Part shown: piece after piece, positions 47,758-52,085 of the stretch
Layout of the letters: the number at the start of each line of letters is the position of its first letter
How positions within the stretch are numbered: the first letter of the stretch is position 1
Assembly (NCBI GenBank): GCA_964385825.1
Contig: CAYLPX010000001.1
Location: 173,797 to 237,796 of the forward strand
Source of the DNA: an uncultured Candidatus Saccharibacteria bacterium
GTDB taxonomy: Bacteria > Patescibacteriota > Minisyncoccia > Phycocordibacterales > JAKFXT01
Direction: 5' to 3'
Length of the DNA: 64,000 nt
Translations under genes and position numbers: made by a program
Notes under the pieces: generated by a model
The model's database searches: none
The model's input: the letters and a program-made list of their open reading frames with translations, nothing else
What the model was told of the DNA's origin: nothing

Positions 47758-47830
47758 AAGAATTCCATCTTACTTGATTTATACACAGAAACAAGTTTTA
47801 ATTACAAAAGTTCCACCCAAGGAGAGATAC

Positions 47831-47965
47831 ATGGACAACATGGACGAGAGTTCGTGGCACATGCTTTGGGCTGTTCCCACCTGCATTTTCCTTTTCATCT
47901 TGTTTCTGCTTTGCTGTCTCGTGATGAGGGAAAATCCGATGCACTTTTTTGACACTGAACCTTAA
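47831..47965 (+). CDS. GC-rich cassette G1: 44-aa single-TM peptide (Hok/Gef-like flavour)
   Basis: MDNMDESSWHMLWAVPTCIFLFILFLLCCLVMRENPMHFFDTEP. SD AAGGAGAG. The 23-nt leader is identical to the one before cassette I. Confidence 0.45.
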   Translation: MDNMDESSWHMLWAVPTCIFLFILFLLCCLVMRENPMHFFDTEP

Positions 47966-47978
47966 GGGGGGTTTCACT

Positions 47979-48095
47979 GTGGGTAAAATCAAGCAGTGGC
48001 TGACCGCGGTCACGGAAGGCATCTGGTTCGCGCTTTTTCTTCTCTCCGTACTCCTCGCGAAGGATGATCAGGAGGGCGCGAGTCCCTGGGACTGA
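47979..48095 (+). CDS. GC-rich cassette G2: 38-aa single-TM peptide, GTG start with SD AAGGGGGG
   Basis: (M)GKIKQWLTAVTEGIWFALFLLSVLLAKDDQEGASPWD. Followed by hairpin ggcccggcacgc-aaa-gcgtgccgggcc (48102-48128). Confidence 0.4.
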   Translation: MGKIKQWLTAVTEGIWFALFLLSVLLAKDDQEGASPWD

Positions 48096-48132
48096 TTCAA
48101 CGGCCCGGCACGCAAAGCGTGCCGGGCCACCA

Positions 48133-48969
48133 TCATTTTATACTTTTATAGAAAACCTTACTTCCAAAACGCAAATCTATATACTCCACCTTCAAAGCCC
48201 CTGTCTCATCTTTACCCTTAAACTCGCTGCTCTCAACTAACGCCTCAAAGTTATTTAGTGCTGCTCCATAATCACTATTTTCAGCAAATAAAAGCTTGCC
48301 TCCCTTTTGTAATTCCATCTCAATAAGTGCATTCTCTTTTACTCGTACAGTTCTAACGGGGTATCCAAGTTTATTCAAACGATCAGTGGTAAAAGTTATG
48401 GCCCTAAACTCAGGTGTCTTAAGAAACTGACTCGTTACCACAGGACTTGAAGTAGTTCCATAAAAAGTGAGTAGCACCGAGTCTGAAAACTCTGGTGCAT
48501 CGCTAAATATATATCCATCCTGATCCAAAAAATAACAAGGTGAACTTGTTGCGGTATCATTCCACTCCCCGCAATAGAGAGCATATGGTTTCCGCTCCAC
48601 AATAGCAACTGCTATTGTTTGAAAATTACTAAAAGAGACATTGGCACTTAAAATATGTGGATCGAGAGCTGTTATATCTTTCGCAATTTGTTCTCTGGGG
48701 TATAGAAAAATAGCCCGCTTTGGAAATACATGAAAATAGGAGCCGCGTAACTCACCCTCCACCTTTCCTAAAATAGCTTCCGGTTTAAGCACCTCGGTCC
48801 CCTTAACTTCAATATGAGAAATCGTTAGCTGTGGAAATCGTGGCACAGTATAGAGGAGCGCACCAAAGCCAAAAAGTAAGAAAATGAACAACCCCACTTG
48901 AAGTAGCGCTCGCTGTTGTCGACGCTTTATTCTCTTTTTAGTATCAAGATCACGCTTGCCTCGTTGCAT
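48133..48969 (-). CDS. ftsQ: Cell-division protein FtsQ/DivIB-like (N-terminal TM + POTRA-like domain)
   Basis: Basic N-terminus, one TM (LLQVGLFIFLLFGFGALLY), then TISHIEVKGTEVLKPEAILGKVEGELRGSYFHV resembling POTRA. Confidence 0.5.
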   Translation of the reverse strand: MQRGKRDLDTKKRIKRRQQRALLQVGLFIFLLFGFGALLYTVPRFPQLTISHIEVKGTEVLKPEAILGKVEGELRGSYFHVFPKRAIFLYPREQIAKDITALDPHILSANVSFSNFQTIAVAIVERKPYALYCGEWNDTATSSPCYFLDQDGYIFSDAPEFSDSVLLTFYGTTSSPVVTSQFLKTPEFRAITFTTDRLNKLGYPVRTVRVKENALIEMELQKGGKLLFAENSDYGAALNNFEALVESSEFKGKDETGALKVEYIDLRFGSKVFYKSIK

Positions 48970-48984
48970 ACCTTCAGTATAAAG

Positions 48985-49016
48985 CAGAAAAGGGAACGGC
49001 GTAAGCCGTTCCCTTT
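48985..49016 (-). terminator. Intrinsic terminator downstream of serS
   Basis: aagggaacggc-gtaa-gccgttccctt plus U-run. Confidence 0.6.
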
Positions 49017-49041
49017 TCTCGTAGCTCCTCTACCCTACTAT

Positions 49042-50304: not shown

Positions 50305-50360
50305 AATTTATTCCCAATACGTAACAGTCTATAGTTAATAGAGGATAGAATCAAGAGAAT

Positions 50361-50386
50361 AGAAAAAGGGCGGCCTCCGGCCGCCC
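50361..50386 (-). terminator. Intrinsic terminator for cassette H (gggcggcc-ggag-gccgccc + U-run)
   Basis: Read directly. Confidence 0.65.
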
Positions 50387-50393
50387 CACACCC

Positions 50394-50747
50394 TCATATA
50401 TATTTCCCCATAAGTCGACATGCATCCGCGGCGACCTGTATGGGGGTCGGCTGAACGCTAAAGAGCCGCTCACGTGACGGAAAATCGGACGCGAGTAATG
50501 CTACCGACCCCCGAACGACGATGAAACCTTCCCAGTTGGCAACATCGAGAGACTCCAGATGCTGAGTGTTCACCTCTTCGGGATCACCCAGGGCGATAAC
50601 GCCATAGCCAGGAAAGTCGCGAAGATGCCGACTGGCCTCTTCCAGATCACGAGCTTCCCCCGTCGGAAACCCGGCCTGATTGAGCCAAAGGCACATGACT
50701 CGCCGCGCCTCAGCCTCCGCACAAAGAACCAGAACCTTCTTATGCAT
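50394..50747 (-). CDS. GC-rich cassette H: hypothetical 117-aa protein, possibly receiver-like fold
   Basis: ORF track. SD AGGGGG 5 nt upstream (50753-50758). GC-rich. KVLVLCAE..beta-alpha pattern is weakly receiver/CheY-like. Confidence 0.5.
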   Translation of the reverse strand: MHKKVLVLCAEAEARRVMCLWLNQAGFPTGEARDLEEASRHLRDFPGYGVIALGDPEEVNTQHLESLDVANWEGFIVVRGSVALLASDFPSRERLFSVQPTPIQVAADACRLMGKYI

Positions 50748-50830
50748 GTTTGCCCCCTAGGCAGTTTTTTCCTATTAGTAGTTTTTCCACATAACTTGAA
50801 GAATTGCAAATAGGTCGACTTTTTTAAGCT

Positions 50831-51700
50831 ATGATTACTATAATGGATGAAATACAGCTACTTCCTAAAGCAGACTTCCCGGAGCGACTTTTAGAAATCC
50901 CTGATGCTCCTAAATCACTCTATTATAGAGGGATACTTCCTGACTTTGAGGAGAATAGATTTCTCGCAGTGGTTGGCTCACGCAAGTTCAGCAATTATGG
51001 AAAGGAGGCTTGCCAAAAATTACTCTCTGGACTCTCTGGCTACCCCATAGTCGTCATATCTGGACTTGCGCTTGGAATAGATGCCATTGCCCATGAGTCA
51101 GCACTTTCTGCAGGGCTAAAAACACTGGCTGTTCCTGGTTCAGGACTTAATGATGCGGTACTCTATCCACGAATGAACTTCAACCTTGCTCAAAGGATTC
51201 TAAAAGAAGGAGGTGCGCTACTTTCAGAGTTTGAACCAGATGCAAAATCAGCTCCATACTTTTTCCCACAACGTAATCGCATTATGGCCGGACTCTCCCA
51301 TGCAGTCCTCATCATAGAAGCAGAGGGACAAAGTGGGACCTTGATTACTGCGCGCCTTGCTACCGAATACAACCGCGATGTGCTTACTGTCCCTGGTTCT
51401 ATTTTTAGCGAAACATCAGCTGGTCCACATTTACTTCTCAAACTCGGCGCAACCCCCATTCGCACGAGCGAAGACATACTTGAGGCACTCTATATAACAA
51501 CTATGAGTGAAGAAAAAGTAATGCCGAGCAACTTAACTCCAGACGAGCAAAGGGTTTTGGAACTTCTACGAGAACCAATCGAGAAAGAGATGATTTATGG
51601 ATGTCTTGCTCTTTCAACTAGTGAAGTCAACTCACTCTTAACTATGATGGAACTTAAGGGACTAATAAGAGAAAGTTTGGGGAAATTGTACCAAGTTTGA
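50831..51700 (+). CDS. dprA: DNA-processing protein A (DprA/Smf)
   Basis: Rossmann-like core GYPIVVISGLALGIDAIAHESAL and a C-terminal DML1-like domain. Confidence 0.9.
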   Translation: MITIMDEIQLLPKADFPERLLEIPDAPKSLYYRGILPDFEENRFLAVVGSRKFSNYGKEACQKLLSGLSGYPIVVISGLALGIDAIAHESALSAGLKTLAVPGSGLNDAVLYPRMNFNLAQRILKEGGALLSEFEPDAKSAPYFFPQRNRIMAGLSHAVLIIEAEGQSGTLITARLATEYNRDVLTVPGSIFSETSAGPHLLLKLGATPIRTSEDILEALYITTMSEEKVMPSNLTPDEQRVLELLREPIEKEMIYGCLALSTSEVNSLLTMMELKGLIRESLGKLYQV

Positions 51701-51755
51701 CAAGGCAGTTTTATACTATTAAATACTGATAGACCCACCACCCAAGGAGAGATAC

Positions 51756-52085
51756 ATGGAGTACATTGCCGCAATTGGTCCCAAGGACCCCACGCTCTCG
51801 GAACTCCGACTGACGACGTTTGAGCAGGCGGAGGTCGCCATGCTCGTAGCATGGCTCAACTACCATCTGCTGCTCACCGAAAACAAGATGACGATTGAGG
51901 GGAATTCCTCCATTGCGTTCAGCACCAAGGAGAATCCGGTACGCCTCGAACTTGGTCCAACCGCCTCATCGAACAACGTCGTGCGTGCCGTGATGAAACG
52001 GTTCCATGAGGTCGGCTGGGAATGTCGTGCCTTTGATGTCCCCATGAAAACCCTGAGCATGCATTTCTGGGCACTCAGTGGATGA
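51756..52085 (+). CDS. GC-rich cassette I: hypothetical 109-aa protein
   Basis: ORF track. Leader ccacccaaggagagatacATGga is identical to the cassette G leader. Followed by terminator 52101-52128. Confidence 0.55.
   Translation: MEYIAAIGPKDPTLSELRLTTFEQAEVAMLVAWLNYHLLLTENKMTIEGNSSIAFSTKENPVRLELGPTASSNNVVRAVMKRFHEVGWECRAFDVPMKTLSMHFWALSG

What the first reader, a model, noticed from the sequence alone, without database searches (positions are those of the whole stretch)
47813..51760. Two unlinked GC cassettes share an identical 23-nt leader (ccacccaaggagagatacatgga)
The sequence spanning SD, spacer, and start codon is identical at 47813-47835 (before the 44-aa TM peptide G1) and 51738-51760 (before the 109-aa protein I), although the downstream ORFs are unrelated. 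A shared leader on different cargos indicates a common construction or recombination mechanism, as with cassette-style modules or a common promoter-proximal junction, rather than independent evolution.
Basis: seen in the sequence. Interest (0 to 1): 0.55.

Follow-up and report, generated by a model that had tools for sequence, protein, structure and literature searches.

The report
Borrowed ribosome-binding leader on new gene
Two small genes 3.9 kb apart in an uncultured Patescibacteria genome carry the same 23-base ribosome-binding leader, most likely because a species-specific orphan gene picked up a short copy of its neighbour's leader; this is a small, local event and not evidence of a cassette-building system.

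Summary
CCACCCAAGGAGAGATACATGGA occurs exactly twice (47813-47835 and 51738-51760, + strand). There are no near-copies, none in shuffles, and the flanks are unrelated. It is a translation-initiation region: AAGGAG, a 6-nt spacer, ATG and 2 nt.

The first copy heads a two-peptide membrane operon (G1/G2) lying between dus and ftsQ. The sister species L010 has this operon at the same site, and its closest match to the leader lies inside that operon. The leader is therefore probably native there.

The second copy heads protein I, a 109-aa ORFan in a ~455-nt GC-rich unit ending in a terminator. That unit sits between dprA and topA and is absent from every relative examined.

The likeliest story is that a recently gained, moron-like gene received a 23-31-nt ectopic patch of the G1 leader. 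Nothing points to a general cassette mechanism. Ten other GC-rich ORFs have different leaders, no 3' repeat or att-like site is shared, and the 18-nt core appears in public metagenomes only as an ordinary RBS in unrelated bacteria.

The wider context is more intriguing. GC-rich, fast-evolving small genes with SD leaders sit among AT-rich core genes that mostly lack SD.

The parts
47813..47835 (+). Leader copy 1: SD AAGGAG (47819-47824), 6-nt spacer, ATG (47831-47833) plus GA. This is probably the native copy.
   Evidence: Exact match. The sister species has a significant gapped match (20/24) at the same locus, L010 6056-6075.
51738..51760 (+). Leader copy 2: SD AAGGAG (51744-51749), 6-nt spacer, ATG (51756-51758) plus GA. 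This is probably the derived copy.
   Evidence: Exact match. It lies inside a segment absent from all relatives examined.
47758..47812 (.). Compact dus/G1 divergent upstream region (promoter block), conserved with sister species L010.
   Evidence: About 80% identity to L010 over this block in alignment A1, dropping sharply where the leader starts. No hexamer pair passes the consensus promoter scan, so the promoter assignment is inferred.
47831..47965 (+). G1, a 44-aa single-helix membrane peptide.
   Evidence: ORF with SD. Best match is L010 peptide P2 (BLOSUM62 local score 47 against 37 for P1).
47979..48095 (+). G2, a 38-aa hydrophobic peptide with a GTG start, second gene of the operon.
   Evidence: ORF preceded by GGGGGG. 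Best match is L010 peptide P3.
48102..48128 (+). GC-rich 12-bp hairpin closing the G1/G2 unit, followed by only a weak T tract.
   Evidence: Read directly from the sequence. L010 has a hairpin at the same place. It is not listed by the terminator scan because the T run is poor.
51701..52156 (+). Species-specific inserted segment between the dprA stop codon and the topA promoter: AT-rich upstream stretch, leader, protein I, terminator and a 41-nt pure A/T tract.
   Evidence: Relatives have only about 54-97 nt here: L010, L095, L094, L090. For L011-L013 the figure is inferred from blastn coordinates.
51756..52085 (+). Protein I, 109 aa, an ORFan.
52102..52127 (+). Intrinsic terminator of the protein I unit (CCCCGCGTAATGCGGGG plus T run).
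   Evidence: Terminator scan: 7-bp stem with 6 GC pairs, tail CGTTTTTTTA.

Best explanation
The 23-mer is a Shine-Dalgarno-type translation-initiation region: AAGGAG, a 6-nt spacer, AUG and the first 2 nt of codon 2. It makes up most of a short 5' UTR.

It is native to a small operon of two membrane peptides (G1, G2) between dus and ftsQ. This species inherited that operon from its common ancestor with sister species L010.

After the two species split, a ~455-nt GC-rich unit encoding the ORFan protein I, with its own terminator, was gained between dprA and topA. The architecture resembles a phage 'moron'.

The initiation region of protein I is a very recent short ectopic copy (23-31 nt) of the G1 leader. 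It was probably made by homology-independent or microhomology-guided short-patch recombination of the SPDIR type: an ectopic single strand anneals at a replication fork and is built into the new strand. The copy gave the new gene a proven ribosome-binding site.

What is shown:
- The identity and its non-randomness.
- The SD/ATG geometry.
- The terminator after protein I.
- The absence of the protein I unit in relatives.
- The presence of the G operon and of a leader-like sequence at the same locus in the sister species.

What is inferred:
- The direction of copying (G1 to I).
- The recombination mechanism.
- The promoters.
- Expression of the genes.
For: Non-randomness and reality:
- The match is exact and unique, and absent from shuffles.
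- Independent assemblies all carry both copies.
- The flanks are unrelated.

Function as an initiation region:
- AAGGAG lies 6 nt from the ATG in both copies.
- Predicted anti-SD duplex energies for the cassette leaders average about -9.5 kcal/mol.
- A strong terminator follows protein I.

The protein I unit is a recent gain:
- The dprA-topA spacer is only about 54-97 nt in L010, L094, L095, L090 and L011-L013.
- Protein I has no homologue anywhere.

The G operon is ancestral:
- L010 has three homologous peptides at the same site behind the same conserved upstream block.

The leader is native to the G locus:
- Its best match in L010 (20/24 with 3 gaps) lies inside that operon, about 30 nt upstream of the P2 start.
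- No score that high occurred in 4,910 control tiles from other loci, and only 0.1% of shuffles reached it.

The copy is recent:
- Orthologous cassette leaders and ORFs differ by roughly 25-60% between the two species, yet the two copies here differ at 0 of 23 positions.

The mechanism is plausible:
- SPDIR is documented to write ectopic intragenomic patches of 3 to about 100 bp at (extended) microhomologies (bioRxiv 10.1101/2023.11.22.568220).
- The 28/31 pattern (23 identical, 2 mismatches, ACAT) fits an extended-microhomology edge.
Against: - The direction of copying rests on a 20/24 gapped match of a short, SD-containing sequence. MAFFT offers other alignments of the leader to L010: to the P1 leader at 11/23, or split across a gap.
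- No pre-event allele of protein I is available, so the junction microhomologies cannot be verified.
- Only 64 kb of the genome was seen. Further copies elsewhere would weaken the 'one-off patch' reading.
- No canonical -35/-10 pair passes the consensus scan upstream of either copy.
- There is no expression evidence for G1, G2 or protein I.
- Most core genes here lack SD (4 of 38), and the 16S rRNA 3' end was not available, so SD use by this organism's ribosome is assumed.
Confidence: 0.6

Rival explanations
1. The leader is the conserved 5' junction or recombination site of a family of mobile gene cassettes (integron-like, or a common promoter-proximal junction). Both units were built or inserted by the same machinery.
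For: About a dozen GC-rich small units, each with an SD and most with a GC hairpin or terminator at the 3' end, sit singly between core genes. The identity starts exactly where the conserved host upstream block ends.
Against: - Only 2 of 12 units share the leader.
- There is no shared 3' element.
- The empty site in relatives holds no leader-like sequence.
- One of the two units is vertically inherited, with a diverged leader-like sequence in the sister species.
- All other cassettes within L010's range have diverged counterparts at the same positions in L010 and were not freshly inserted.
- The 23-mer gave 0 hits in genome and metagenome collections, and the 18-nt core gave 0 hits in viral contigs.
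- No related locus has the leader within 4 substitutions.
Confidence: 0.08
2. The copy is real but ran the other way or came from a third source. Either the leader arrived with protein I (or from elsewhere in the genome) and overwrote the G1 initiation region, or both were converted from an unseen third copy.
For: Direction is inferred from a short gapped match only. Other alignments give only about 48% identity between the G1 leader and L010. Most of the genome is unseen.
Against: The best L010 match to the leader lies in the orthologous operon and beats all 4,910 control tiles. Protein I and its surroundings have no counterpart in any relative.
Confidence: 0.2
3. The two leaders converged independently on an optimal ribosome-binding sequence, or match by chance.
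For: The 18-nt core CCCAAGGAGAGATACATG arises independently as an RBS in about 20 unrelated metagenomic contexts. Strong RBS sequence space is therefore small.
Against: None of those hits extends to the 23-mer, and they come from hundreds of billions of bases. Within 64 kb there were no hits in shuffles even at 3 mismatches. Identity also covers non-SD positions (CCACCC, AGATAC, GA).
Confidence: 0.02
4. The identity is maintained, not merely recent, because the leader is a shared regulatory target (for example of an sRNA or an RNA-binding protein) that co-regulates the membrane peptides and protein I.
For: An identical 5' UTR would impose identical translational control. The one polymorphism seen in a strain variant lies in the coding region and not in the leader.
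Against: The two mRNAs have no shared secondary structure, and neither fold differs significantly from shuffles. The window has no complementary sequence within 3 mismatches. There is no Rfam match. This idea explains maintenance but not the origin of the copy.
Confidence: 0.08
5. The second copy is an assembly or chimera artefact.
For: The sequence comes from metagenomes.
Against: Nine contigs from different samples, runs and assemblers are 99.9-100% identical across both sites. A 23-nt repeat is shorter than typical assembly k-mers.
Confidence: 0.01

Closest known systems
Phage 'morons' (Juhala/Hendrix concept; reviewed in PMC3594210)
   Same: The protein I unit is extra DNA between two genes that are adjacent in relatives. 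Its GC content differs from its neighbours and it has its own terminator, with a putative promoter. This matches the definition quoted.
   Different: It sits in a bacterial chromosome between housekeeping genes (dprA, topA) whose order recurs in many of the related Patescibacteria loci fetched, not in a phage or prophage. The promoter is unproven. The borrowed leader is not part of the moron concept.
[quoted passage not shown] 2016, as described in bioRxiv 10.1101/2023.11.22.568220)
   Same: A short ectopic patch (documented range 3 to about 100 bp) identical to another place in the same genome, with unrelated flanks and an edge that looks like extended microhomology (28/31).
   Different: SPDIR was demonstrated in Acinetobacter baylyi under selection. 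Here it is only inferred from the end product: the pre-event allele is unknown and the microhomology cannot be verified.
Integron gene cassettes
   Same: Small, single-gene, compositionally foreign units.
   Different: There is no array, no attC-like shared 3' site and no attI/intI context. Each unit has its own leader and most end in their own GC hairpin or terminator, and most are vertically inherited at fixed sites.
Small hydrophobic membrane peptides (type I toxin-like or small membrane protein operons)
   Same: G1 (44 aa) and G2 (38 aa) each have one hydrophobic helix and a charged tail. They form a compact unit of their own and evolve fast.
   Different: No antisense RNA, homology or function was established. 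This is a resemblance only.

Membership tests
Integron gene cassette | attC (59-be) imperfect inverted-repeat recombination site at the 3' end, related between cassettes | tested here: not met
   The 3' parts of the two units show no similarity beyond shuffles on either strand. Each unit ends in a different GC hairpin or terminator.
Integron gene cassette | Cassettes arranged in an array next to attI | tested here: not met
   Most units sit singly between different core genes (dus/ftsQ, serS/dprA, dprA/topA, topA/relA, relA/parB). None of the called neighbours in that region has an integrase Pfam hit.
Integron gene cassette | intI integrase gene adjacent to the array | not tested
   The remaining ORFs of the window were not scanned exhaustively for an integrase.
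Phage moron | Extra DNA between genes that are adjacent in related genomes | tested here: met
   dprA and topA are about 54-97 nt apart in L010, L094, L095, L090 and L011-L013, against 505 nt here.
Phage moron | [quoted passage not shown] | tested here: met
   Protein I has GC 0.55 and GC3 0.68, against neighbours at 0.44-0.45 and GC3 0.35-0.39.
Phage moron | Own promoter and terminator | tested here: inconclusive
   The terminator is clear. No sigma-70 consensus pair passes the scan upstream. There are only -10-like TATACT/TAAATA boxes and a TTGACA overlapping the dprA stop codon.
Phage moron | Located in a phage or prophage genome | tested here: not met
   The flanks are housekeeping genes whose order recurs in many of the related Patescibacteria loci fetched. 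Protein I has no PHROG hit.
SPDIR microindel | Short (3 to about 100 bp) patch identical to an ectopic genomic sequence, with heterologous flanks | tested here: met
   23 nt are exact (28/31 when extended), and the flanks are unrelated.
SPDIR microindel | Microhomology or extended microhomology between donor and recipient at both junctions | not testable with these tools
   No pre-event allele of the protein I leader exists in any collection searched. Only the 3' edge pattern (2 mismatches, then ACAT) is suggestive.
Site-specific att core of an integrative element | Core sequence duplicated at both ends of the inserted element and present at the empty site | tested here: not met
   Neither unit has a leader-like sequence at its 3' end, and none is present in the empty dprA-topA spacers of relatives.
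Shine-Dalgarno translation-initiation region | Purine-rich motif complementary to the 16S rRNA 3' end, 5-10 nt upstream of a start codon that opens an ORF | tested here: met
   AAGGAG lies 6 nt upstream of an ATG in both copies, with strong predicted pairing to a generic anti-SD. The organism's own 16S 3' end was not available, which remains a caveat.

The most novel reading that the evidence does not exclude
The leader is a portable expression module. In a Patescibacteria lineage whose core genes largely do without Shine-Dalgarno sequences, newly acquired GC-rich ORFan genes become expressible by capturing a resident SD leader. On this reading the G1-to-I copy is the first visible instance of a recurrent route, possibly competence- or ssDNA-driven, for domesticating foreign or de novo genes. 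It would also tie in with the unexplained class of GC-rich, SD-led, terminator-bounded, very fast-evolving small genes interspersed among the core genes.
Probability: 0.07. Interest if true: 0.7.

Novelty: new variant of a known kind. Interest (0 to 1): 0.33.

Why it matters
By itself this is a small event: one ribosome-binding leader copied a few kilobases onto a new gene. It does give an unusually clean snapshot of how a newly arrived orphan gene in a tiny, streamlined symbiont genome can acquire working expression signals, with the source, the recipient and the empty site all identifiable.

The context may matter more. This genome and its sister species carry a set of GC-rich small genes with strong SD leaders, most of them ending in a GC hairpin or terminator. 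These genes evolve several times faster than the surrounding core genes, which are AT-rich and mostly lack SD. The origin and role of this gene class in Patescibacteria is unexplained and may be relevant to host interaction.

Tried and rejected
- Exact 23-mer scans of genome contigs and metagenome contigs gave 0 hits. The metagenome collection evidently lacks the samples that carry this genome, so this speaks only to other organisms.
- An 18-mer core scan gave 0 hits in viral contigs. It gave 25 metagenome stretches, all ordinary RBSs of unrelated genes in unrelated organisms.
- I searched for the leader within 4 substitutions in 80 related loci and found none outside the same strain.
- I looked for recurrent leader sharing in relatives through exact repeats of at least 17 nt. 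Only unrelated repeat types turned up, and none in L010.
- All-against-all blastp of the cassette proteins found no paralogy.
- The PRTase from the neighbouring GC island was used to look for a donor lineage. Outside the genus the nearest relatives are only 35-36% identical, so no donor was identified.
- Rfam found only 3 tRNAs. Folding the two 5' UTRs showed no shared structure.
- Two literature searches on Patescibacteria, one pairing it with Shine-Dalgarno/leaderless initiation and one with HGT/GC content/intergenic, found no description of this gene class.
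Full report
**Observation**

The 23-mer CCACCCAAGGAGAGATACATGGA is present exactly at 47813-47835 and 51738-51760 on the + strand. With up to 3 mismatches, on both strands, these remain the only two matches, and 100 dinucleotide-preserving shuffles gave none. It is the longest exact repeat in the window outside the internally repetitive 4562-aa gene at 11.6-25.3 kb.

In both copies AAGGAG lies 6 nt upstream of an ATG at positions 19-21 of the repeat. The ATGs open a 44-aa hydrophobic peptide (G1, 47831-47965) and a 109-aa protein (I, 51756-52085).

Identity ends sharply at the 5' side. At the 3' side there are two mismatches and then ACAT is shared, giving 28/31. Beyond that, Smith-Waterman scores of the flanks are no better than shuffles on either strand, and the proteins are unrelated.

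Nine contigs from several JGI samples and SRA runs are 99.9-100% identical to the window, and every one that spans a site carries that copy. The repeat is therefore real and not an assembly artefact.

**Setting**

The window is from an uncultured Patescibacteria (Paceibacteria-type) genome of about 42% GC. TopA-based retrieval gave 80 related loci, the closest being L010, a sister species with TopA 91% aa identity.

The local gene order is dnaX, a GC island that includes a PRTase, dus, G1/G2, ftsQ, serS, a 117-aa ORF, dprA, protein I, topA, a membrane ORF, relA, a 115-aa ORF and parB. The core genes recur in the same order in many of the related loci.

The interspersed small ORFs differ from the core genes in several ways:

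| Feature | Cassette ORFs | Core genes |
|---|---|---|
| GC3 | 0.56-0.72 | 0.22-0.41 |
| Clear SD motif | 11 of 12 | 4 of 38 |
| Mean predicted anti-SD duplex (kcal/mol) | -9.5 | -2.0 |

Most cassette ORFs also end in a GC-rich hairpin or terminator. Many core genes instead have a -10-like TAnnnT box close to the ATG.

**History of the two units**

The two units have different histories.

*The dus-ftsQ unit is ancestral to this species and L010.*
- L010 carries three homologous small membrane peptides at the same site: P1 (5965-6099), P2 (6107-6238) and P3 (6248-6352). They lie behind an upstream block that is about 80% identical to the window's.
- G1 matches P2 best and G2 matches P3 best.
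- The window's leader has a gapped match in L010 (CCACCAAGGAGGATACGGAC, 20/24 with 3 gaps). It lies inside this same operon at 6056-6075, in the tail of P1 about 30 nt upstream of the P2 start.
- None of 4,910 control tiles from other related loci reached that score, and only 0.1% of shuffles did.
- The leader sequence therefore appears to be native to this locus. In the sister species the corresponding bases encode Lys-Glu-Asp-Thr-Asp.

*The protein I unit is a gain specific to this species.*
- dprA and topA are separated by about 70 nt in L010, L094 and L095, and by 97 nt in L090.
- By blastn coordinates they are about 54-62 nt apart in L011-L013.
- In the window the gap is 505 nt.
- The extra segment runs from the dprA stop codon (51700) to the conserved topA promoter block (about 52157).

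**Protein I**

Protein I is an ORFan.
- The only hit among 5.8 billion proteins, and the only credible hit among 1.84 billion representatives searched exhaustively with phmmer, is itself.
- It has no significant Pfam, PHROG, NCBIfam or PADLOC hit.
- Its codon-position GC pattern (0.55/0.42/0.68), its SD-ATG start and the terminator 16 nt after its stop codon argue that it is a real gene.
- A strain variant differs by one nonsynonymous SNP in 1.7 kb, with the leader unchanged.

**Timing**

Cassettes found at the same positions in the window and L010 are homologous along their length but highly diverged.
- DNA identity inside the ORFs is roughly 30-65% in 40-nt windows.
- Protein identity is 31-43%, with the PRTase at 69%. 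Several others fall below tblastn detection.
- Core proteins are 76-91% identical and core DNA is 74-82% identical.
- Even leaders differ. For example, the relA-parB cassette leader differs at about 8 of 29 positions.

Against this rate, 0 differences in 23 nt means the copy is very recent relative to the species split. That agrees with protein I being the only cassette in this region with no counterpart in L010.

**Mechanism**

The most economical reading is a short ectopic patch of 23-31 nt. The resident G1 translation-initiation region was copied in front of a newly gained gene, with no homology in the flanks.

[quoted passage not shown] In SPDIR, ectopic single strands anneal at (extended) microhomologies at replication forks and are incorporated, producing patches of 3 to about 100 bp of intragenomic or foreign origin (bioRxiv 10.1101/2023.11.22.568220). 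The 3' edge here (two mismatches, then ACAT) is compatible with an extended microhomology.

This step is inference. No pre-event allele exists in the collections searched. Whether the patch was selected because it provided a working SD is also inferred.

**Tests of the cassette-system idea**

- The other ten GC-rich ORFs have different leaders, 8-15 mismatches over 18 nt.
- The two units share no 3' element.
- The empty sites in relatives contain nothing leader-like.
- No related locus carries the leader within 4 substitutions.
- Relatives show no comparable leader sharing.
- The 23-mer is absent from the genome and metagenome collections, and its 18-nt core from the viral one.
- The 18-nt core is found 25 times in metagenomes, in unrelated organisms of 35-67% GC. 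There it is the ordinary RBS of unrelated genes, none of the hits extends to the 23-mer, and the count is about what chance plus RBS bias would give.
- There is no Rfam family and no shared RNA structure.

**Comparison with known systems**

In architecture the protein I unit resembles a phage moron: extra DNA between genes that are adjacent in relatives, deviating GC content, its own terminator and a putative promoter (definition in PMC3594210). It is not a member of that class because it is chromosomal and lies between housekeeping genes. It fails the defining features of integron cassettes and of att-flanked integrative elements. The leader itself is a standard SD initiation region.

**Verdict**

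Interest is modest.

The more unusual matter is the gene class to which both units belong: GC-rich, SD-led, mostly terminator-bounded and fast-evolving, inside a genome that is AT-rich and poor in SD. Its origin remains unexplained here. No donor lineage could be identified even for the PRTase.

Noticed in passing
whole window (e.g. 559-948, 37881-38285, 44973-46773, 47831-48095, 50394-50747, 51756-52085, 54447-54806, 56494-56841, 58721-59149): There are two gene classes. GC-rich small ORFs (GC3 0.56-0.72) have strong SD motifs (11 of 12) and mostly end in GC hairpins or terminators. AT-rich core genes (GC3 0.22-0.41) mostly lack SD (4 of 38) and often have a -10-like TAnnnT box close to the ATG, which looks like leaderless or short-leader mRNAs.
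   Followed up: partly
window 44973-59149 versus L010 2998-17545: The GC-rich ORFs have counterparts at the same positions in sister species L010 but diverge far faster than core genes: 31-43% aa, or undetectable by tblastn, against 76-91%. The reading frames are nevertheless kept. Why they are GC-rich and evolve so fast is unexplained.
   Followed up: partly
L010 5965-6352: The sister species has three tandem small membrane peptides (P1-P3) where the window has two (G1, G2). P1 and P2 are paralogues. The window's G1 leader matches the coding tail of P1, so an SD may have arisen from former Lys-Glu codons.
   Followed up: partly
window 58485-58503 / 58611-58629; 58568-58616 / 62217-62265; 42874 / 43005: The 3' end of tRNA-Leu (19 nt) is repeated 126 nt downstream. 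A 49-nt element just before that repeat has an inverted 88% copy next to tRNA-Trp and matches in L010 and L015. An 18-nt piece of tRNA-Gln is likewise repeated 131 nt away. This looks like an att-like scar or a tRNA-linked repeat. An Rfam E-value search of the tRNA-Leu region (58350-58720) gave no significant match other than the tRNA itself.
   Followed up: partly
window 52120-52160: A 41-nt tract made only of A and T lies between the protein I terminator and the topA promoter. L010 has a different 26-nt AT-rich spacer here.
   Followed up: no
window 11655-25343 (-): A giant 4562-aa ORF built of many diverged internal repeats (families of about 245, 141, 136 and 73 nt), typical of a large surface protein.
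   Followed up: no
window 37881-38285 (-): A GC-rich 134-aa cassette ORF has weak hits to DUF6884, phrog_5935 and the PADLOC DpdC models. It is one of only two cassette proteins with family-level hits below E = 1e-4, the other being the PRTase.
   Followed up: no
L121 (JGI 3300045388), equivalent to window 51552-53279: A strain variant differs from the window by a single SNP in about 1.7 kb. That SNP is nonsynonymous in protein I (M29I). The first ~55 nt of that contig do not match the window.
   Followed up: no
window 51695-51700: The only TTGACA upstream of protein I overlaps the dprA stop codon (gTTTGAca). Any -35 element for the new gene would therefore be built partly from the end of the host gene.
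   Followed up: no
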